The notes beneath the pieces are model-generated. The model was not told the origin of the DNA, did no database searches, and saw only the letters and a list, made by a program, of their open reading frames with translations. Shown piece by piece: positions 2,454 to 63,035 of a DNA stretch of 64,000 nucleotides (its first letter is position 1; the number at the start of each line of letters is the position of its first letter). This DNA comes from Escherichia coli (GTDB taxonomy: Bacteria > Pseudomonadota > Gammaproteobacteria > Enterobacterales > Enterobacteriaceae), in assembly GCF_003018255.1 (NCBI RefSeq), contig NZ_CP027440.1; one strand, given 5' to 3'. The translations under genes were made by a program, and so were the position numbers.

Positions 2454-3674
2454 CTATAAAGCTTGCAGCAAGCTGGCGAGTTCTCGATTGATCACCTGCT
2501 GGTTAAAATCGTGTTCGACTTTTTCGCGAGCACGTTTGATAACCGGAGCCAGTTCGTCGGTGTCCAGTTGGCTAAACGCCGCCAGTCGTTGCGCCAGTGC
2601 GCGAGCATCGTTCTCAGGCACCAGCCAGCCGGATTTATCGGCCTCCACCAGTTCCGGTATTCCGCTATGCAGAGTAGAAACCACCGGAATGCCGACCGCC
2701 ATCGCTTCCATTAGTGCCACCGGAATACCTTCCATATCGCCGTCCGCACCTGTAACCGATGGCAACAGGAAGACATCCGCGTCGTCGAGCATCGCCTTCA
2801 CTTCATGGCTCGGTTTAAAGCCCGGCATCTCTATCACATCTTCCAGTTGATATTGTTCGATGAGGGTGCGCAGGCGTCGTTCCCACGGGCCAATGCCGAG
2901 GATGCGATAGCGAAATGCCACGCCCTGCTCTTTCAACTGACGGCAGGCTTCGATCGCCACATGCAGGCCTTTTTTCTCGGTTAAGCGTGCGACGGAAATG
3001 ATTTCCAGCGGTATTGCGGGCGCTTTCACCGGACGCGGGCTAAAGCGCGTCATGTCCACGCCCATGCGCGATACAGCGATTTTTTCCCTCGGGCAGCCCA
3101 TTTTTTGCAGCCTCCCGGCCCACAGATCGCTTATCGGTAGCATCAGGTCGCCACGGCGGAACAGTTGCTGATATTCGGGAGTGTAGTGGTTGAGCACTTC
3201 CCGACTGGAGATATCAATACCGTGGAAGATAGTGGCAATTTTGCCGCGAATGATACCCAGTTCGCGTAGTTTTGCTGCGGTTACCCCCGCCGGGCCAAAA
3301 TGAGCGATAAAGACATCGGCATAAAATGGTGTTGCGACCTGACCACAAATGGCAGACAAAATCAGGTTCCGCGACTCGGCACCATAGCGTTTGAGGTTGA
3401 GCGCCTGCCAGGTATTTTTACGATGAATGCCGCGTAAGGTCTGGCTGGCGCGGTGGCGCAGCTTCGCCACTTTGCCCGTAGGTTCGTCCTGTAACCAGCG
3501 GGTTCTGGCGGCAAGGTTGTATTTCGTCCATGCCGCGTGGGTGTTCTCTGTATCGCCTTTTTGCAGCGCGACAATCTCCACCTCAAAGCCCATATCAATA
3601 AACGCAGTGATTTGGTTGAGGACGAAGGTTTCCGACGACAACGGAAATTTCAGTAAAAAGAAGCCGACCTTCAT
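2454..3674 (-). CDS. wcaL: colanic acid glycosyltransferase WcaL
   Basis: 406 aa ORF, GT4-type glycosyltransferase; 4-bp overlap with wcaK stop. Confidence 0.9.
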
Positions 3675-4951
3675 TTCGCCTCCCCGATGCGCTCAAGCAC
3701 TGACTGCACCATCTGCATTCCTGTCTGACGCTCACGACTGACGGCTTCACTAAGTCGCGCATTCAGCGCCGGAAGCTGGCCTAAGGTATCCGCAACCATC
3801 GCTTGCAGGCTGCCGTCCAGTAAATGACGGATATCAATTGCCATCTCTGGTAGCCCCAGTTGTTGCATAATCCCGGCGGATTTATGTTCATAGTTGATGG
3901 CAATCGCCGGAGTGGCAAAGTTCATCGAGATAATGGCAGAGTGCAAGCGCGTACCGACGGTGAGTTCACAGGCCCCCAGAATTTTGCCCATTTCCAGATC
4001 ATTGAGTTCATCCATCACTACGTGGTAACGGGCAGGATCGCTGATGTGCTGGCGCAGGTTGAGCGCCACCATGCGGTCGTCTTTGTTATAGCTGTCGATG
4101 CCCGTACAGGTGGAAAGCGCAATCACCTGATAGCCTTCGTCGAGAATGCGATTGACCACCCCGGCAAAGGCTTTTTCATACGCTTGCTGAGTGGTGCCGA
4201 GACGTTTGTCGAACGGTGCCAGTTCGCGCAGGGTAATTGCCACCGTTTTCTGTTGTGCGGCAACGTCCAGCCAGTGTTGAACAGCATAGCTGGCGGTGAA
4301 GTCTTCAATGTGGTGATCGACCAGCCACGCGGTATCGACGCCATGTTCAACTTTTGCAGTGGTGATATTGCTGCGTTTCATCAAATCAAGGCTGACCGAT
4401 TCGCGCAGGATCAGCGCGTCGCAGTGACCAAAGACATAGTTCGCCAGTTGGTTAAATTGCTCATCCTGGAAGGGGCCGACGCTGTGACCAATCATAAACA
4501 GCGGCTTTTTCGCCATGAAAGTGCAAAGCGCATGTTCAAACTGCGGCACGCCATAGAGATCGACAAAAAACGATCCGCCGACCTGAATAATGGCGTCGTA
4601 ACCTGACAGCAGTCGCACGAAGTCAGTGAATCCCTGGGCGATGGCGATATTACGCAGCTTGCCAGTGTCGGTGACGCGTGAGAGCAATACCTGGTGCTGG
4701 TAGCGGCGACGGAGGACTTTTTTAACGCGCCCAACAACGCCCGCCGCGCTGTTGTGTTGTTTCATTTGCAGGAACAGCGGGTCGCCCATTACCGGGCGGT
4801 TGAGCAGCCAGGAAGAACTGACCGGATAGCGGCTCATCACGTCCACTTCGGCATGTGGATTGAGGATGTTGATGGCATCAAGTAAGCCACGCAGGATGGC
4901 GCTATCGCCACGATTGCCGCAAGTGTGGTTGCCCAGAATAAGTAATTTCAT
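3671..4951 (-). CDS. wcaK: colanic acid pyruvyl transferase WcaK
   Basis: 426 aa ORF (MKLLILGNHTCGNRGDSAIL...), polysaccharide pyruvyl transferase family. Confidence 0.9.
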   Translation of the reverse strand: MKLLILGNHTCGNRGDSAILRGLLDAINILNPHAEVDVMSRYPVSSSWLLNRPVMGDPLFLQMKQHNSAAGVVGRVKKVLRRRYQHQVLLSRVTDTGKLRNIAIAQGFTDFVRLLSGYDAIIQVGGSFFVDLYGVPQFEHALCTFMAKKPLFMIGHSVGPFQDEQFNQLANYVFGHCDALILRESVSLDLMKRSNITTAKVEHGVDTAWLVDHHIEDFTASYAVQHWLDVAAQQKTVAITLRELAPFDKRLGTTQQAYEKAFAGVVNRILDEGYQVIALSTCTGIDSYNKDDRMVALNLRQHISDPARYHVVMDELNDLEMGKILGACELTVGTRLHSAIISMNFATPAIAINYEHKSAGIMQQLGLPEMAIDIRHLLDGSLQAMVADTLGQLPALNARLSEAVSRERQTGMQMVQSVLERIGEAK

Positions 4952-4974
4952 TTTTTCCTCATAAATTTGATGCC

Positions 4975-5605
4975 AGGTGAGGCTGTGTTTGTTGTGTTCG
5001 TTGCCGTTTTTTGCCTGATGCGACGCTAACGCGTCTTATCAGACCTACAAGTCCCGAGCACAGAACCGTAGGCCGGATAAGGCGTTCACGCCGCATCCGG
5101 CATTCAGTGCCTGATGCGACGCTGACGCGTCTTATCAGGCCTACAAGATCCGAGCACAGAACCGTAGGACGGATAAGGCGTTCACGCCGCATCCGGCATT
5201 CAGTGCCTGATGCGACGCTGACGCGTCTTATCAGGCCTACAAGATCCGAGCACAGAACCGTAGGACGGATAAGGCGTTCACGCCGCATCCGGCATTCAGT
5301 GCCTGATGCGACGCTGACGCGTCTTATCAGGCCTACAAGACCCGAGCACAGAGCCGTAGGACGGATAAGGCGTTTTACGCCGCATCCGGCATTCAGTGCC
5401 TGATGCGACGCTGACGCGTCTTATCAGGCCTACAAGATCCGAGCACAGAACCGTAGGCCGGATAAGGCGTTCACGCCGCATCCGGCATTCAGTGCCTGAT
5501 GCGACGCTGGCGCGTCTTATCAGGCCTACAAGATCCAAGCCCAGCCCCCCAGGACGGATAAGGCGTTTTACGCCGCATCCGGCAACCGTTGCCGGAACCG
5601 AAAAC
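4975..5605. repeat. REP/BIME array, about six tandem ~98-bp units of paired inverted REP elements
   Basis: Motif gcctgatgcgacgctgacgcgtcttatcaggcctacaag...ggataaggcgttcacgccgcatccggc recurs at ~5004, 5110, 5208, 5300, 5398, 5494. Confidence 0.9.
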
Positions 5606-5611
5606 AACCAT

Positions 5612-7090
5612 TCACCCCGCCCGTAAAAGCATTTTCATTTTTTCGCTGCGACAAAACTGACGCTTCACTTCCACCACCAGCGGATGGCGTGACAGCACAA
5701 TCATCACCACAAACGCCAGCACGCCTGCGGCTATTTGCACCGCCAGCAGCATCCCCAGCGCCAGTTGCCCTTTCAGCACAATGCCCAGCGCATAACTGAC
5801 CCCCAGTGTCGGCAACGAGAGATAAAACGGCAGCCACAAACTCAGGATGTACTGGCGATAACTGGAACCAAGAACCGGTTTAATCATCACGAAGTAACTC
5901 AGAATGGTGTTGATAATCTGCACCAGCAGGAAACCGAGCGTGACGCCGATTGCGCCCGCCATCTGCCCACCAATAACAATCGCCGGAATAAACAGAAATG
6001 TTTTGAATACGTTGAATTTAAAGCTGATATCGACCCGCGCTTTCGCCATCAGCAGCGAACCAATCGGGTTACCCACCGAACGCAGCAGTCCCACCACACA
6101 CAGCAATTGCAGCACCGGAATAATGCTGTTCCACTTCTCACCAAAGACCAGCGGTACAAAGTTATTCGACACCACCATCAGCCCCAGCAGCGCCGGAAAG
6201 TTGATAATCCCCACCACCGACAGCAGCTTGTAGAAGTTGACGCGCAGCTTTTCGGTGTCGTCCTGAATTTTGGCAAATGCCGGAAACAACACGCGGGTGA
6301 TGATTGGGTTCAGCTTCATCGGCGGCACAACGGCCACGTTGTACGCCAGGTTGTATCCCCCTGCCACGCCCGCGCCGAGAATACGCGCCAGCACCAGCGT
6401 TGAAAGGTTAGTGTTGAGATAGTTGATGATGCTGTCCGCCGTCAGCCAGGCACCAAAGCGTAAGTTCGGTGCCACCGACGCCAGCGAGAAATGCAGACCG
6501 GGGCGATAAATTTTGCGACCAAAGTAGCCAAACAGCAGCGTTCTCACCGCACTATTGACCAGATAACCGAGGATCGCAGTCATCGCCAGCGGCCAGAAAT
6601 GGGCGCTAACCACCGTAAAAGTGAAGCCCGCCAGCACCGCGCTGGTTTCGATCATGCCGATTTTGTTGAACTCCAGCTCCTTCTGCATCAACGCGCGGAA
6701 CTGTTGCCCGTGGGGGATTACCACAAACGCCAGCGACAATGTTTTAATCAACGGTGCCAGGTCCGGGTTGTTCAGCACGTCACCAATGAGATCACTCAAC
6801 AAAAACACCGCCACACACACCACAAGCCCCAGCCCGACGTTTAGCCAGTACAGCGTGGTGAGTTCAAGGTGGCTGATTTCTTTTCGCTGAATAATCGAGT
6901 TAGCGATACCGAAGTCAGAAAGCGTATCTGCCAGCGCGATAATCACCAGCGACACGGTAAGCAGGCCGAACTGGTGGTTGTCGATAATCCGCGCCAGCAC
7001 GGTCATCTGCACCAGCCCAAGGCCGATGATGATCACCGTGGCAATCGCCGACCACTTCGCGCCGCTGATGGTTTTTTCACGTAAGCTCAT
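5612..7090 (-). CDS. wzxC: colanic acid repeat-unit flippase WzxC
   Basis: 492 aa polytopic membrane ORF (MSLREKTISGAKWSA...). Confidence 0.9.
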   Translation of the reverse strand: MSLREKTISGAKWSAIATVIIIGLGLVQMTVLARIIDNHQFGLLTVSLVIIALADTLSDFGIANSIIQRKEISHLELTTLYWLNVGLGLVVCVAVFLLSDLIGDVLNNPDLAPLIKTLSLAFVVIPHGQQFRALMQKELEFNKIGMIETSAVLAGFTFTVVSAHFWPLAMTAILGYLVNSAVRTLLFGYFGRKIYRPGLHFSLASVAPNLRFGAWLTADSIINYLNTNLSTLVLARILGAGVAGGYNLAYNVAVVPPMKLNPIITRVLFPAFAKIQDDTEKLRVNFYKLLSVVGIINFPALLGLMVVSNNFVPLVFGEKWNSIIPVLQLLCVVGLLRSVGNPIGSLLMAKARVDISFKFNVFKTFLFIPAIVIGGQMAGAIGVTLGFLLVQIINTILSYFVMIKPVLGSSYRQYILSLWLPFYLSLPTLGVSYALGIVLKGQLALGMLLAVQIAAGVLAFVVMIVLSRHPLVVEVKRQFCRSEKMKMLLRAG

Positions 7091-9911: not shown

Positions 9912-9999
9912 ATCGTTACCCTTTTTCAGGCAATAGTTGGCCCTGACCGAAGCGGCCAATTTTGTTTTTGTCGTTATTTACATCGCGGTTTCGCATTCA

Positions 10000-10103
<104 letters not shown>

Positions 10104-20480: not shown

Positions 20481-20585
<105 letters not shown>

Positions 20586-24527: not shown

Positions 24528-24539
24528 CACGCTACCGCC
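24528..24539 (-). promoter_or_regulatory. ops element (GGCGGTAGCGTG) within the JUMPstart sequence of the cps leader; RfaH-dependent antitermination site
   Basis: Plus strand reads cacgctaccgcc, the reverse complement of the ops consensus, about 180 nt upstream of wza start in the long leader. Confidence 0.8.
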
Positions 24540-24787
24540 CCTGGCTTTTTAGCTACCAATACACTGATTTAGCTTAATTTTTAAAACCCTCTCAACATAC
24601 AGTCGTTGATGAGAAAGGGTTATTGCGGAAATTAACTTCCGAATATAAGGTGACATTATGGTAATTGAATATTGGCTCTCCAATAATGCAGGAGGAAGTG
24701 TTACAGCTAACGGAATAGCAGGCAAGGTAACAATTCGGCAATTGGCTATTTTTAAGAATTATATTAAGTGTCATTCAATATGGTTTT

Positions 24788-26591: not shown

Positions 26592-26598
26592 TAAAACA

Positions 26599-26628
26599 TC
26601 AAATGCGCAGGTTCAAACTGCGCATTTG
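26599..26628 (+). terminator. hairpin downstream of yegH (10-bp perfect stem aaatgcgcag/ctgcgcattt)
   Basis: Inverted repeat seen directly; the following T-tract is weak, so intrinsic-terminator function is uncertain. Confidence 0.45.
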
Positions 26629-26665
26629 ATTTATACAAAATTTAGTATAATCTAAGGATGGAGTA

Positions 26666-27004
26666 ATGAGAAAAAAGCTGGCTTTTCTTGATACCAGTCT
26701 TGACGATTTACGCGCATTTCCAGAATCGTCTCGACAGGAAATTGGCTATCAACTCGACAGGATCCAACAAGGGTTAAACCCATACGACTGGAAACCTTTT
26801 TCAACTATCGGCCCTGGTGTGCGAGAGATTCGTACTCGCGATGCTGATGGGATCTATCGCGTCATGTATGTCGCAAAATTTGAAGAAGCGGTTTACGTAT
26901 TGCATTGTTTTCAAAAGAAAACACAGACTACCAGTCAATCGAATATTGATTTAGCCAAACGACGCTATAAAGAACTTGTTCAGGAGCGGAAAAATGAAAA
27001 TTGA
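26666..27004 (+). CDS. putative type II toxin, RelE/ParE superfamily (phage Gp49/HigB-like)
   Basis: 112 aa ORF with SD (ggag) and an upstream perfect TATAAT at 26646-26651; small basic protein; overlaps the downstream HTH gene by 11 bp; family assignment from recalled sequence similarity only. Confidence 0.6.
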   Translation: MRKKLAFLDTSLDDLRAFPESSRQEIGYQLDRIQQGLNPYDWKPFSTIGPGVREIRTRDADGIYRVMYVAKFEEAVYVLHCFQKKTQTTSQSNIDLAKRRYKELVQERKNEN

Positions 27005-27284
27005 AACCTTTGATAGTGTGTGGGATGCGGTGAGTGACACCCCTGAACAAGCGGAAAATATGCGGATCCGTGCCGAACTTGTTACGATCATTAATAACTG
27101 GATTGAACAACAAGGGTTTAGCCAGGCTCAGGCAGCGTCTGCTTTAGGGGTCACTCAACCTCGCATATCTGAACTTGCCAGAGGTAAGATCCAGATCTTT
27201 AGTATCGATAAATTGATCACCATGATGGCTCATGCAGGATTGCATATTCAACGTATTGAAGTTCAATATCCACATGCTGCTTAG
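26994..27284 (+). CDS. putative antitoxin, HTH XRE-family DNA-binding protein (HigA-like)
   Basis: 96 aa from ATG 26994 (MKIETFDSVWDAV...), preceded by AGGAG; HTH-like segment FSQAQAASALGVTQPRISELARGK; alternative in-frame start at 26976. Confidence 0.6.
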   Translation: MKIETFDSVWDAVSDTPEQAENMRIRAELVTIINNWIEQQGFSQAQAASALGVTQPRISELARGKIQIFSIDKLITMMAHAGLHIQRIEVQYPHAA

Positions 27285-27295
27285 TACTATAAATA

Positions 27296-27325
27296 CAGAT
27301 GGCGACAAATTGACGCCGCCATCTG
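27296..27325. terminator. hairpin between convergent antitoxin gene and asmA (9-bp stem cagatggcg/cgccatctg)
   Basis: Inverted repeat seen directly; could terminate either convergent transcript. Confidence 0.4.
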
Positions 27326-27336
27326 CATAACTTGTC

Positions 27337-34175: not shown

Positions 34176-34262
34176 TCGCCTGATACGACGCTAACGCGTC
34201 TTATCAGGCCTACAAATCGCTCATTCCCCAGGCCGGATAAGGCGCTCGCACCGCATCCGGCG
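34176..34262. repeat. REP element pair between dgcE and alkA
   Basis: gcctgatacgacgctaacgcgtcttatcaggcctac ... ggccggataaggcgctcgcaccgcatccggc. Confidence 0.8.
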
Positions 34263-39971: not shown

Positions 39972-40152
39972 AAGAAATCCTTTCTTAGAGAATTATTGAG
40001 GCCCGGTATCATACCGACTGCAACAATGAAATAAGAGCAAACGAAGAAACTTTCAGAATTAGGCCCGGCGGCGCAGAAAATTTTGCTATTCGCCTCGCAA
40101 GAACGGAGAGCCGTCGATTGACACTAAGGGCGGAGTGACATAATTTCAGGAG

Positions 40153-40298
40153 TGAGGGTTAGGGAGAGGTTTCCCCCTCCCCCTGGTGTTCTTAGTAAGC
40201 CTGGAAGCTAATCACTAAGAGTATCACCAGTATGATGACGTGCTTCATCATAACCCTTTCCTTATTAAAAGCCCTCTTCTCCGGGAGAGGGTTTCCCG
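40153..40298 (+). ncRNA. sib: Sib antitoxin sRNA, repeat unit 1 (antisense to ibs unit 1)
   Basis: -35 TTGACA (40118-40123), 17-bp spacer, -10 TAATTT (40141-40146); ends at hairpin ccctct...agaggg plus TTTCCCGTTT; ends approximate. Confidence 0.6.
40192..40251 (-). CDS. ibs: Ibs type I toxin peptide, unit 1 (MMKHVIILVILLVISFQAY)
   Basis: 19-codon hydrophobic ORF fully antisense to Sib unit 1; matches recalled Ibs family pattern MMK...LLVISFPAY. Confidence 0.7.
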   Translation of the reverse strand: MMKHVIILVILLVISFQAY

Positions 40299-40487
40299 TT
40301 TCAGCGTCCCGCTGAAATCGTCGGCTTACCTCCTTTCGCCCTGAATGCAGTCTATCGCTAACGCGTGAACAAAATAGTTTCCTCTGTGATTATTGCGTAA
40401 CGACTCGCAAAGAATATTTGCTGGCAGGATCGCAGACTACAAAGCCTGCGGATTGACAATCTTATCGTGAAGGCATAATTTCAGGAG

Positions 40488-40628
40488 TGAGGGTAGAGCG
40501 GGGTTTCCCCCGCCCTGGTAGTCTTAGTAAGCTGGCCAGCTAATAACTAAGAGCACCACGATGATGAGTAGCTTCATCATGACCCTTTCCTTATTTAAGG
40601 CCCCTTCCTCGGGAGGGGCTTTCCCGTT
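40488..40628 (+). ncRNA. sib: Sib antitoxin sRNA, repeat unit 2
   Basis: -35 TTGACA (40453-40458), 17-bp spacer, -10 TAATTT (40476-40481); terminator gccccttcctcgggaggggc plus T-tract. Confidence 0.6.
40524..40580 (-). CDS. ibs: Ibs type I toxin peptide, unit 2 (MMKLLIIVVLLVISWPAY)
   Basis: 18-codon hydrophobic ORF antisense to Sib unit 2. Confidence 0.7.
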   Translation of the reverse strand: MMKLLIIVVLLVISWPAY

Positions 40629-40815
40629 TCAGCGTCCCGCTGAAATCGGCGGCCTACCTCCTTTCGCCATGCAAGCAGTCTATCGCTAACTTGCAGATAA
40701 AATAGTTTCACATGTGATTATTGCGTAACGTCTCGCAAAGAATATTTGCTGGCAGGATCGCAGACTACAAAGCCTGCGGATTGACAATCTAATTGTGAAG
40801 GCATACTTTCAGGAG

Positions 40816-40956
40816 TGAGGGTAGAGCGGGGTTTCCCCCGCCCTGGTAGTCTTAGTAAGCCGGGAAGCTTATGACTAAGAGCACCACGATGATGATCCAC
40901 TTCATCATGACCCTTTCCTTATTTAAGGCCCCTTCCTCGGGAGGGGCTTTCCCGTT
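40816..40956 (+). ncRNA. sib: Sib antitoxin sRNA, repeat unit 3
   Basis: -35 TTGACA (40781-40786), weaker -10 TACTTT (40804-40809); same terminator hairpin as unit 2. Confidence 0.55.
40852..40908 (-). CDS. ibs: Ibs type I toxin peptide, unit 3 (MMKWIIIVVLLVISFPAY)
   Basis: 18-codon hydrophobic ORF antisense to Sib unit 3. Confidence 0.7.
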   Translation of the reverse strand: MMKWIIIVVLLVISFPAY

Positions 40957-41143
40957 TCAGCGTCCCGCTGAAATCATCGGCTTACCTCCTTTCGCCCTGA
41001 ATGCAGTCTATCGCTGACTTGCGGATAAAATAGTTTCACATGTGATTATTGCGTGACGTCTCGCAAAGAATATTTGCTGGCAGGATCGCAGACTGCAAAG
41101 CCTGCGGATTGACAATCGGACCGTGAAGGCATACTTTCAGGAG

Positions 41144-41287
41144 TGAGGGTAGAGCGGGGTTTCCCCCGCCCTGGTAGTCTTAGTAAGCTGGGTAGCTAAC
41201 GACTAAGAGCACCACGATGATGAGTATCTTCATCATGACCCTTTCCTTATTTAAGGCCCCTTCCTCGGGAGGGGCTTGCCCGTTTCA
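41144..41287 (+). ncRNA. sib: Sib antitoxin sRNA, repeat unit 4
   Basis: -35 TTGACA (41109-41114), -10 TACTTT (41132-41137); terminator hairpin followed by an interrupted T-tract (cttgcccgtttc). Confidence 0.5.
41180..41236 (-). CDS. ibs: Ibs type I toxin peptide, unit 4 (MMKILIIVVLLVVSYPAY)
   Basis: 18-codon hydrophobic ORF antisense to Sib unit 4. Confidence 0.7.
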   Translation of the reverse strand: MMKILIIVVLLVVSYPAY

Positions 41288-54583: not shown

Positions 54584-54613
54584 GCTGCATTTATTAAGGT
54601 TATCATCCGTTTC

Positions 54614-54700
54614 GCTGAAAAACATAACCCATAAAATGCTAGCTGTACCAGGAACCACCTCCTTAGCCTGTGTAATCTCCCTTACACGGGCTTATTTTTT
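54614..54700 (+). ncRNA. cyaR: CyaR (RyeE) Hfq-dependent sRNA
   Basis: 87-nt sequence gctgaaaaacataacccataaaatgctagctgtaccaggaaccacctccttagcctgtgtaatctcccttacacgggcttatttttt matches recalled CyaR, including terminator hairpin and U-tail. Confidence 0.88.
54674..54700. other. bacteriophage P2 attB core (locI), unoccupied
   Basis: Reverse complement is AAAAAATAAGCCCGTGTAAGGGAGATT, the 27-bp P2 att core as I recall it; overlaps the CyaR terminator. Confidence 0.55.
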
Positions 54701-56540: not shown

Positions 56541-56570
56541 GCCGGATGCGGTGTAAACACCTTATCCGGC
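56541..56570. repeat. REP element between convergent yegS and gatR
   Basis: gccggatgcggtgtaaacaccttatccggc palindrome. Confidence 0.7.
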
Positions 56571-56583
56571 ATACAGAACAATA

Positions 56584-62999: not shown

Positions 63000-63035
63000 G
63001 CCGGATGTGGCGTTAACGCCTTTTCCGGCCTACGG
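63000..63035. repeat. REP element downstream of fbaB
   Basis: gccggatgtggcgttaacgccttttccggcctacgg palindromic REP-like motif. Confidence 0.65.

What the first reader, a model, noticed from the sequence alone, without database searches (positions are those of the whole stretch)
4955..5610. About 630-bp REP/BIME array inside the cps operon between wcaK and wzxC
Roughly six near-identical ~98-bp units, each a pair of inverted REP palindromes, lie in the middle of a long polycistronic unit on the transcribed strand. Such arrays can form stable RNA structures that modulate transcript stability or polarity and promote recombination. The six-frame track produces several spurious 100-130 aa ORFs from the periodicity.
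Basis: seen in the sequence. Interest (0 to 1): 0.3.

Follow-up and report, generated by a model that had tools for sequence, protein, structure and literature searches.

The report
Variable REP (BIME-2) array in colanic-acid operon
The stretch is a well-known kind of bacterial repeat: twelve small palindromes (a BIME-2 array, called REP144 in E. coli K-12) between two colanic-acid genes, and it differs from other strains only in having an unusually high copy number, so it is ordinary.

Summary
A tandem array lies at 5012-5584, with a 96-97 bp period and 6 units. Each unit holds one Z2 and one inverted Y REP palindrome, giving 12 hairpins. It fills the 660-bp gap between wzxC and wcaK, both on the minus strand, inside the ops/JUMPstart-led cps operon. 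It meets the sequence definition of a BIME-2.

The site is a copy-number polymorphism. In 59 evenly sampled complete E. coli genomes the gap held 0 to 6 units. K-12 has 2 units, and this window's 6-unit allele was the rarest class (1 of 59). About 8% of genomes have an empty 71-bp site, and about 7% carry an unrelated palindrome instead. REPs, indels and a recombination junction at this junction were published in 2011.

The transcript is predicted to fold very strongly (z = -16), but I found no covariation, promoter or intrinsic terminator. The three ORFs in the array have no family support.

[quoted passage not shown] Here the array is inverted relative to transcription, is G-rich on the mRNA, and lies in an RfaH-bound operon. 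I therefore expect a mild, copy-number-dependent RNA-decay barrier and little termination.

One unexpected result: this junction has acquired palindromic repeats in 28 of 77 Enterobacteriaceae species, against 1 of 77 for the neighbouring wcaL-wcaM junction.

The parts
4952..5611 (.). Whole wzxC-wcaK intergenic region, 660 bp
   Evidence: ORF ends. K-12 has 275 bp at the same place.
5012..5584 (.). BIME-2 tandem array: 6 units of 96-97 bp, 12 REP palindromes
   Evidence: TRF period 96, 5.9 copies, 94% matches; unit listing.
5013..5048 (+). Z2 REP, unit 1. The others are at 5109-5144, 5205-5240, 5301-5336, 5398-5433 and 5494-5529.
   Evidence: Pattern matches and hairpin folds of -15 to -21 kcal/mol.
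5068..5101 (-). Y REP, unit 1. The others are at 5164-5197, 5260-5293, 5356-5390, 5453-5486 and 5549-5583.
   Evidence: Pattern matches and hairpin folds of -14.8 to -21.3 kcal/mol in mRNA sense.
5071..5141 (+). First of five Rfam naRNA4 (RF02564) matches above the gathering score. Each spans inverted Y, the TTCAG linker and Z2. The others are at 5167-5237, 5263-5333, 5359-5430 and 5456-5526.
   Evidence: 69-82 bits against a gathering score of 59.5 on the + strand. The minus (mRNA-sense) strand scores 48-55 bits, below gathering.
4999..5006 (+). Left copy of the 8-bp direct repeat CGTTGCCG that brackets the array
   Evidence: Read from sequence. The empty 71-bp allele has a single ATTGCCG.
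5587..5594 (+). Right copy of the 8-bp direct repeat CGTTGCCG
4952..5011 (-). 60-nt leader of wcaK with its ribosome-binding site (GAGGAAAAAATG on the mRNA), downstream of the array
   Evidence: Sequence. Conserved in all occupied alleles.
3671..4951 (-). wcaK (colanic acid pyruvyl transferase), the gene downstream of the array
   Evidence: TIGR04006, 935 bits; RefSeq annotation.
5612..7090 (-). wzxC (colanic acid flippase), the gene upstream of the array. Its stop codon TGA is at 5614-5612, 28 nt before the first Y REP.
   Evidence: NF007773, 832 bits; sequence.
24528..24566 (-). JUMPstart element with ops (GGCGGTAGCGTG) in the operon leader upstream of wza, about 19 kb upstream of the array
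   Evidence: Rfam RF01707, 57.3 bits; exact ops match.
5011..5403 (+). Spurious periodic ORF of 130 aa. The others are at 4959-5288 (-) and 5296-5607 (-).
   Evidence: ORF list. No Pfam family reaches its cutoff. RefSeq annotates no gene here in any strain inspected.

Best explanation
This is a BIME-2: a tandem array of alternating, mutually inverted Y and Z2 REP palindromes. It occupies the only sizeable gap in the distal part of the cps (wza-wcaM) operon. It is the same element as K-12 REP144, expanded from 2 to 6 units.

Shown: its identity, its position, and its behaviour as a variable-number repeat. It changes in steps of one 96-bp unit, and internal units are shuffled while the end units are conserved. 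This points to unequal recombination or slippage between units.

Inferred: when Rcs induces the operon, RfaH-modified RNA polymerase reads through the array. The mRNA then carries 12 stable hairpins between wzxC and wcaK. These act locally and quantitatively as a barrier to 3'-to-5' exonucleases. They protect the upstream wza-wzxC segment and slightly lower wcaK-wcaL-wcaM relative to upstream genes, and the effect grows with copy number.

The array is dispensable and probably close to neutral. Natural strains with 0 units, or with a different palindrome at the site, keep the operon intact.

My confidence that it is a BIME-2 copy-number polymorphism is about 0.97. My confidence in the mild RNA-barrier mechanism is about 0.45.
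For: Identity:
- TRF reports the array.
- Z2 sits on + and Y on -, alternating.
- Five Rfam naRNA4 hits exceed the gathering score. That model is built on the Y-Z2 pair of REP325.
- The array aligns side by side with REP325.
- There is no IHF consensus site.
- It fits the BIME-2 definition given in PMC3333891.

Polymorphism:
- A flank-only BLAST found the locus in 4653 of 5426 genomes.
- In 59 evenly sampled genomes the gap was 70-72 bp (5), 145 (2), 161 (4), 178-179 (9), 274-276 (18), 359-373 (5), 466-468 (8), 563-565 (7) and 660 (1).
- Sequenced alleles confirm 0, 1, 2, 3, 4, 5 and 6 units.
- Unit order differs between two 6-unit alleles and the window.

RNA structure:
- MFE is -356.8 kcal/mol, z = -16.4.
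- Each hairpin folds at -15 to -21 kcal/mol.
- 96% of stem cells are paired across 30 distinct units from 10 alleles.

Read-through:
- There is no intrinsic terminator and no promoter in the gap.
- ops/JUMPstart sits in the operon leader.
- An RfaH ChIP signal at wza-wcaM was reported in CFT073 (PMC9765446).
- The mRNA sense has C/G = 0.88, against 1.29 for REP325.
- The only mapped in-vitro Rho-binding site next to K-12 REP144 is on the antisense strand (supplement of 10.64898/2026.03.23.713779).

Mechanism by analogy:
- REP325 has 12 hairpins between the tandem genes yjdM and yjdN. It stabilises the upstream mRNA and attenuates the downstream gene.
- Genome-wide, REP-separated tandem pairs are biased towards upstream expression.
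Against: - No expression data exist for this allele.
- There are no compensatory substitutions in the stems (0 pairs).
- Stems are not significantly less polymorphic than loops and linkers: 10 of 48 against 16 of 48 columns, p = 0.25. Nothing in the sequence therefore shows selection on the RNA structure beyond the REP consensus itself.
- In uninduced K-12 (2 units) the downstream gene has more reads than the upstream one: baseMean is 91 for wcaK and 36 for wzxC.
- The cited preprint reports that REP stabilisation depends strongly on context and that terminal REPs do not lengthen mRNA half-lives in general.
- Empty alleles in about 8% of sampled genomes show that any effect is non-essential.
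Confidence: 0.6

Rival explanations
1. Purely neutral or selfish repeat. The array has no measurable effect on cps expression or on DNA topology. It persists and changes length only through recombination or slippage, and possibly through TnpA-REP activity.
For: Copy number ranges from 0 to 6 with no fixed value. Some lineages have an empty site or a replaced one. Most other genera have a 15-40 bp junction. There is no covariation. BIME-2 copy-number variation between strains is a known general property (PMC3333891).
Against: Twelve hairpins of -15 to -21 kcal/mol in an mRNA are unlikely to be invisible to exonucleases. The comparable REP325 changes neighbouring gene expression 3- to 10-fold. 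The junction acquires structured repeats far more often than the control junction.
Confidence: 0.25
2. Strong internal attenuator. Like REP325, the 12-hairpin array causes substantial, partly Rho-dependent termination, so wcaK, wcaL and wcaM are expressed several-fold lower than upstream genes.
For: REP325 has the same architecture and size and lowers the downstream gene 8- to 10-fold. Its Rho dependence appears only with the full 12-hairpin array.
Against: The orientation relative to transcription is opposite to REP325. The transcript is G-rich, with C/G = 0.88 against 1.29. ops/JUMPstart and a published RfaH ChIP signal on wza-wcaM imply that NusG is excluded and Rho is resisted. As an inference from the pathway, starving the operon of the late transferases WcaK and WcaL would be expected to trap undecaprenyl-linked intermediates.
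Confidence: 0.12
3. DNA-level role. The array is a strong, transcription-independent gyrase binding and cleavage site that manages supercoiling in and around a 23-kb operon.
For: BIME-2 elements are over-represented among mapped gyrase cleavage sites, with Y units preferred (PMC6379681). This array has six Y units.
Against: Only a subset of BIME-2 elements are cleaved. The wcaK-wzxC element is not named in that paper's held supplements. Alleles with 0 units are common. Nothing here can test binding.
Confidence: 0.12
4. Source of nucleoid-associated RNAs (naRNA4-like) that bind HU and organise the chromosome.
For: Five Rfam naRNA4 matches exceed the gathering score.
Against: The matches above threshold are on the strand antisense to the operon, and no promoter-like site is present. 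The 2026 preprint reports that REP325 and naRNA4 do not measurably compact the nucleoid.
Confidence: 0.03
5. The periodic ORFs (103-130 aa) encode real repeat proteins.
For: Three ORFs of at least 100 aa overlap the array.
Against: No Pfam family reaches its cutoff. The ORFs follow from a period of 32 codons. RefSeq annotates no CDS here in any of the alleles inspected. The ORFs shrink or disappear with copy number.
Confidence: 0.01

Closest known systems
REP144 of E. coli K-12 (the wzxC-wcaK BIME) and the REPs Iguchi et al. 2011 reported at this junction (PMC3158064)
   Same: Same locus, flanks, orientation and unit type. It is the orthologous element. REP indels and a sequence-similarity junction at wcaK-wzxC are already published.
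   Different: K-12 has 2 units (4 palindromes, a 275-bp gap). This window has 6 units (12 palindromes, 660 bp), the rarest class in the sample at 1 of 59. That equals the largest REP cluster annotated in K-12 (1-12 palindromic units).
REP325 / naRNA4 (yjdM-yjdN BIME-2, Rfam RF02564)
   Same: Twelve alternating Z2 and Y hairpins between two tandem, co-transcribed genes. Y and Z2 sequences are near-identical. Rfam hits exceed the gathering score.
   Different: The period is 100 bp against 96 bp, with different linkers. The orientation relative to transcription is opposite. The transcript C/G ratio is 1.29 against 0.88. REP325 is not in an ops/RfaH operon. Function was measured for REP325 and not here.
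BIME-2 family (Gilson, Bachellier, Hofnung; as summarised in PMC3333891)
   Same: Y plus Z2 units in inverse orientation, tandem copies, short linkers, extragenic location, and strain-variable copy number.
   Different: None found. I could not check the linker motifs against the published S, s, l and r motifs because the figures are not held.
Intercistronic REPs that stabilise upstream mRNA (malE-malF, hisJ-hisQ; Newbury 1987 and Stern 1988, as cited)
   Same: REP hairpins lie between cistrons of one operon and are co-transcribed.
   Different: Those are one or two palindromes. This array has twelve, and no stability data exist for it.

Membership tests
BIME-2 | Built of Y-type and Z2-type REP palindromic units | tested here: met
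   Six Z2 and six Y units were located. They are near-identical to the Z2 and Y units of REP325. Five naRNA4 (Y-Z2 pair) hits score 69-82 bits against a gathering score of 59.5.
BIME-2 | REP and inverted REP alternate in opposite orientation | tested here: met
   All Z2 tails match on the + strand and all Y tails on the - strand, strictly alternating.
BIME-2 | Occurs as multiple tandem copies | tested here: met
   5.9 copies, period 96, 94% matches.
BIME-2 | Short S linker between the pair, plus s, l or r flanking motifs | tested here: inconclusive
   A 5-nt linker (TTCAG) and a 19-nt linker (AAGATCCGAGCACAGAACC) are present. I did not compare them with the published motif sequences.
BIME-2 | No long L linker or IHF site (this distinguishes it from BIME-1) | tested here: met
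   No WATCAANNNNTTR match on either strand of 4952-5611.
BIME-2 | Extragenic location | tested here: met
   It lies wholly between the wzxC stop and the wcaK start.
BIME-2 | Copy number at a locus varies between strains | tested here: met
   0-6 units across sampled E. coli genomes.
BIME-2 | Bound or cleaved by DNA gyrase | not testable with these tools
   Known only from the literature for some BIME-2 elements. This locus is not mentioned in the held supplements.
naRNA4 (Rfam RF02564) | Covariance-model score at or above the gathering threshold | tested here: met
   Five + strand hits at 69.2-81.7 bits. The - strand (cps mRNA sense) scores 48-55 bits, below 59.5.
naRNA4 (Rfam RF02564) | Produced as an RNA from the matching strand and binds HU | not testable with these tools
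   The matching strand is antisense to the operon and has no promoter-like site. The nucleoid role is disputed.
REP325-type dual terminator/stabiliser | Long Z2/Y hairpin array between tandem co-transcribed genes | tested here: met
   Twelve hairpins between wzxC and wcaK on one strand, downstream of one ops leader.
REP325-type dual terminator/stabiliser | Same orientation and C-over-G transcript composition as REP325 | tested here: not met
   The yjdMN mRNA carries Z2 in the canonical orientation, whereas the cps mRNA carries Y in the canonical orientation. C/G is 0.88 here against 1.29.
REP325-type dual terminator/stabiliser | Deletion raises downstream expression and lowers upstream expression | not testable with these tools
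   This needs RNA-seq or Northern blots on isogenic alleles.
REP-at-stop-codon translational down-regulation (Liang, Rudd and Deutscher 2015; criterion recalled from memory) | REP hairpin starts within about 15 nt of the upstream gene's stop codon | tested here: not met
   28 nt separate the wzxC TGA (5614-5612) from the first Y REP (5583). An alternative small hairpin, CCGGCA/UGCCGG, starts 17 nt after the stop. I could not retrieve the source paper.

The most novel reading that the evidence does not exclude
The wzxC-wcaK junction may be a selected 'slot' for a structured RNA module in the colanic-acid operon. At least four unrelated palindromic repeat families occupy it in different Enterobacteriaceae: REP/BIME, a GAGAGGG/GGGTGAGGG-type palindrome, an ERIC-like element (named from memory), and others. 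It is occupied in 28 of 77 species, against 1 of 77 for the neighbouring wcaL-wcaM junction. In E. coli the BIME-2 copy number (0-6) would then act as a heritable, rapidly mutable dial. It would set the ratio of the late genes wcaK, wcaL and wcaM to the upstream export and assembly genes, and so affect colanic-acid completion or pyruvylation.
Probability: 0.15. Interest if true: 0.5.

Novelty: already known. Interest (0 to 1): 0.18.

Why it matters
The finding adds little to what is known. It is an expanded allele of an annotated REP cluster, of a family described since the 1990s. REP indels and a recombination junction at this junction were noted in 2011, and the wider copy-number survey here extends that.

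Its practical value is threefold:
- The ORFs in it should not be annotated as genes.
- Its length varies between strains and can break short-read assemblies or confuse alignments of the cps/O-antigen region.
- The natural 0-6 unit series is a ready-made allelic set. It could test whether REP copy number tunes expression inside a long RfaH-dependent operon.

The cross-genus enrichment of palindromic repeats at this one junction is the only element that might repay further work.

Tried and rejected
- **Inverted-repeat finder.** The repeat finder with a 9-nt seed returned no pairs. REP stems have at most 8 perfect pairs before the conserved mismatch, so the seed was too long. Direct folding and pattern searches found the palindromes instead.
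- **Covariation in the stems.** Across 30 distinct units I found 0 compensatory pairs, and the shuffles were identical to the observed values. The test is uninformative.
- **Stem versus non-stem polymorphism.** Diversity is three-fold lower in stems, but the column counts are not significantly different, p = 0.25.
- **Promoter and terminator scan of 4400-6200.** Nothing lies in the gap, so I rejected an internal promoter or an intrinsic terminator.
- **IHF site search.** None found, which rejects BIME-1.
- **Pfam on the three ORFs.** Nothing reaches its cutoff, which rejects coding.
- **Literature searches.** I looked for the REP/stop-codon/tmRNA paper and did not find it in the held library. 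I looked for gyrase cleavage at wcaK-wzxC in the supplements of PMC6379681 and found no mention.
- **Recombination boundary.** I tested whether the array marks a boundary against the closest genome outside the cps region (JNE23-011). There is no step in SNP density at the array. The step lies at the cpsB-cpsG REP pair.
- **Source genome.** No complete E. coli genome in the collection is closer than 98.1% over the cps operon. The mdt region is 99.9% identical to two strains, so the window is E. coli with a distinct cps haplotype.

Full report
**What is there.** Tandem Repeats Finder reports a single array at 5012-5584, with period 96, 5.9 copies and 94% matches. Cutting the sequence at each TGCCTGATGCG gives six units of 96, 96, 96, 97, 96 and about 92 bp. 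A 60-bp segment precedes them and 27 bp follow. Each unit reads, on the + strand: a Z2 REP (GCCTGATGCGACGCTGACGCGTCTTATCAGGCCTAC), a 19-nt linker, an inverted Y REP (GTAGGACGGATAAGGCGTTCACGCCGCATCCGGC) and TTCAG. The six Z2 tails all match on the + strand and the six Y tails on the - strand. The pattern matches 21 times in the window against 0.33 expected by chance. The whole gap, 4952-5611 (660 bp), lies between two minus-strand genes. NCBIfam identifies them as WcaK (TIGR04006, 935 bits) and the WzxC flippase (NF007773, 832 bits), with WcaL and WcaJ beyond them. RefSeq annotations under the BLAST hits agree.

**The ORFs.** Three ORFs of 103-130 aa overlap the array. A 96-bp period is exactly 32 codons, so any frame that is open in one unit tends to stay open through the next. 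None reaches a Pfam threshold. No RefSeq annotation of any allele I inspected has a gene here.

**What family it belongs to.** BIME-2 elements, as summarised in PMC3333891, consist of y and z2 REPs in inverse orientation with short linkers. They occur as tandem copies whose number varies between loci and between strains. All the sequence-level criteria I could test are met. There is also no IHF consensus site, which would have indicated BIME-1. Rfam gives five matches to naRNA4 (RF02564) above the gathering score. That model represents the Y-Z2 pair of REP325, the 12-palindrome BIME-2 between yjdM and yjdN. A side-by-side listing shows near-identical Y and Z2 units but different linkers and a 100-bp period. 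In K-12 the element at this locus is called REP144.

**Variation across strains.** I ran a BLAST with only the 400-bp flanks. It found the locus in 4653 of 5426 complete E. coli genomes. An even sample of 59 genomes gave these gap lengths:
- 70-72 bp: 5 genomes
- 145 bp: 2
- 161 bp: 4
- 178-179 bp: 9
- 274-276 bp: 18
- 359-373 bp: 5
- 466-468 bp: 8
- 563-565 bp: 7
- 660 bp: 1

Reading representative alleles shows what these classes are. The classes of 178-660 bp are alleles of 1-6 units. The 71-bp class is an empty site. The 145-bp class is an internal microhomology deletion that leaves only a Y unit. The 161-bp class is an unrelated sequence carrying a CCCTCACCC...GGGAGAGGG-type palindrome and a different wcaK ribosome-binding region. 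K-12 has two units. The window's allele is the largest and rarest class in the sample. Its 12 palindromes equal the maximum annotated for any REP cluster in K-12. Two other 6-unit alleles, from SCU-387 and CUVET18-789, have different internal unit orders but similar terminal units. Units 2 and 3 of the window are identical. This is the signature of unequal recombination or slippage between units. Iguchi et al. 2011 (PMC3158064) had already described REPs, REP-containing indels and a change in sequence similarity at wcaK-wzxC.

**Insertion site.** The array is bracketed by a perfect 8-bp direct repeat, CGTTGCCG, at 4999-5006 and 5587-5594. The empty allele has one copy (ATTGCCG) and forms a small hairpin, GTTGTTTT...AAAACAAC, just after the wzxC stop. 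This could be a target duplication, the footprint of a precise microhomology deletion, or chance. The empty allele's roughly 10% divergence over the 70-bp gap favours an old empty lineage. I leave this unexplained.

**Operon context.** A JUMPstart element with an exact ops sequence lies at 24528-24566 (-), upstream of wza. All ORFs from there to wcaM are on the minus strand. The array therefore sits about 19 kb into a roughly 23-kb transcription unit. An RfaH ChIP signal on wza-wcaM has been reported in E. coli CFT073 (PMC9765446). The operon is described as using JUMPstart-RfaH antitermination (PMC9976346). No sigma-70-like promoter and no intrinsic terminator are found in or next to the array.

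**Predicted behaviour as RNA.** The mRNA-sense strand of 4940-5625 folds at -356.8 kcal/mol, against -255.7 +/- 6.2 for dinucleotide shuffles, z = -16.4. Single REP hairpins fold at -14.8 to -21.3 kcal/mol in mRNA sense. The global minimum prefers longer Y:Z2 inter-unit helices. Across 30 distinct units from ten alleles, 96% of stem cells are paired, but no stem pair shows a compensatory change. Stems are not significantly less polymorphic than loops and linkers. The structure is thus a property of the REP consensus. Nothing here shows independent selection on it.

**How it most likely works.** The nearest tested analogue is REP325. A 2026 preprint (10.64898/2026.03.23.713779) gives the following results. 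Deleting REP325 lowered the upstream yjdM about 3-fold and raised the downstream yjdN about 10-fold. The array is expressed as a ladder of hairpin-ended species. Attenuation is partly sensitive to bicyclomycin, but only for the full 12-hairpin array. No nucleoid compaction was detected.

Three features argue that termination should be weaker here:
- The array is inverted relative to transcription compared with REP325.
- The transcript is G-rich, with C/G = 0.88 against 1.29 for REP325. The only mapped in-vitro Rho/NusG site abutting K-12 REP144 is on the antisense strand.
- RfaH-modified polymerase excludes NusG and resists Rho. This last point is established knowledge of RfaH and was not tested here.

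I therefore commit to a mild, local, copy-number-dependent effect. The hairpin stack acts as a 3'-exonuclease barrier that favours the wza-wzxC segment over wcaKLM, with largely complete read-through. The element as a whole is dispensable and near neutral. The identity of the element and its polymorphism are shown. Read-through, barrier function and copy-number dependence are inferred. The weak counter-evidence is that uninduced K-12 has more wcaK than wzxC reads (baseMean 91 against 36).

**Rivals.** I consider five alternatives:
- a purely neutral repeat (0.25);
- a strong Rho-dependent attenuator (0.12);
- a gyrase site, because BIME-2 elements and especially Y units are enriched among mapped cleavage sites (PMC6379681), although this locus is not mentioned in the held supplements (0.12);
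- a source of HU-binding naRNA, where the matching strand is antisense, has no promoter, and the role is disputed (0.03);
- real proteins from the ORFs (0.01).

The gyrase and RNA roles are not mutually exclusive.

**Beyond E. coli.** A scan of species-representative genomes with WcaK returned 80 loci. I could measure the wzxC-wcaK gap in 77 of them. It is 14-45 bp in 48 species, overlaps by 4 bp in one, and is 58-271 bp in 28. One of the 28 (L049, Trabulsiella) looks like a mis-placed stop rather than a real expansion.

The expanded gaps fold strongly and carry different elements:
- REP-type palindromes in 7 (Escherichia, Citrobacter and a remnant in Salmonella arizonae);
- GAGAGGG/GGGTGAGGG-type palindromes in 12 (Pluralibacter, Pseudenterobacter, Lelliottia, Kosakonia, Phytobacter, Buttiauxella and others);
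- other sequences in 9, including one that I recognise from memory as ERIC-like.

The neighbouring non-overlapping junction, wcaL-wcaM, reaches 55 bp or more in only 1 of 77 species. These species are not phylogenetically independent. Even so, several unrelated repeat families at one junction imply repeated acquisition. Possible causes are insertion preference, a boundary between recombination modules, or selection for a hairpin after wzxC. I cannot yet tell which. This is the basis of the 'novel case', to which I give 0.15.

**Recombination.** The window's mdt region is 99.9% identical to E. coli JNE23-011, but its cps operon has no relative closer than 98.1%. Aligning the two genomes shows 2-5% divergence from window position 1 to about 10,000. 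Divergence is almost nil from 10,250 to 49,000. The break falls in the cpsG-cpsB REP pair, which also differs by an indel. There is no step at the wcaK-wzxC array in this pair. This agrees with the published idea that REP sites flanking the O-antigen region coincide with recombination junctions. It does not implicate this particular array.

**Verdict.** This is a real, correctly identified and already known kind of element at an already described site. It is notable only for its high copy number. Interest is 0.18.

Noticed in passing
window 9960-10103 (REP pair at 10022-10064), compared with L094: Against E. coli JNE23-011, sequence divergence drops from 2-5% to almost zero exactly at the cpsG-cpsB intergenic REP pair. 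That gap also differs in length (144 against 280 bp). It looks like a recombination breakpoint at a REP site.
   Followed up: partly
window 4999-5006 and 5587-5594; L003: A perfect 8-bp direct repeat, CGTTGCCG, brackets the array, and the empty 71-bp allele has one copy. REP mobilisation is not expected to make target duplications, so its origin is unexplained.
   Followed up: partly
L013-L092 (wzxC-wcaK and wcaL-wcaM junctions): The wzxC-wcaK junction is expanded to 58-271 bp by unrelated palindromic repeat families in 28 of 77 Enterobacteriaceae species. Only 1 of 77 is expanded at the neighbouring wcaL-wcaM junction.
   Followed up: partly
L005 399-559 (E. coli strain N3; same length class in B-RalR and others): About 7% of sampled E. 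coli carry a completely different 161-bp junction. It has a CCCTCACCC...GGGAGAGGG-type palindrome and a wcaK ribosome-binding region like that of other genera, so it is probably an imported allele.
   Followed up: no
window 40118-41251: Four tandem SIB RNA matches (137-150 bits) lie between yegL and mdtA, each opposite an Ibs toxin gene in the related genome JNE23-011. From memory, K-12 has two at this site.
   Followed up: no
window 9916-9965 (-): An Rfam algC RNA motif (RF02929, 77 bits) overlaps the start of cpsG (phosphomannomutase).
   Followed up: no
window 20500-20564, 34198-34243, 56559-56574, 63018-63033: Further REP palindromes: a pair in the wzc-wcaA gap inside the cps operon, a pair after dgcE, and two single units.
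   Followed up: no
window 54612-54697 (+): CyaR sRNA (RF00112, 100.7 bits).
   Followed up: no
window 26592-27336; L094 27658-28276: The related genome annotates a RelE/ParE toxin and an HTH antitoxin pair between yegH and asmA. The window aligns through this stretch without a break, so it probably carries the pair too.
   Followed up: no
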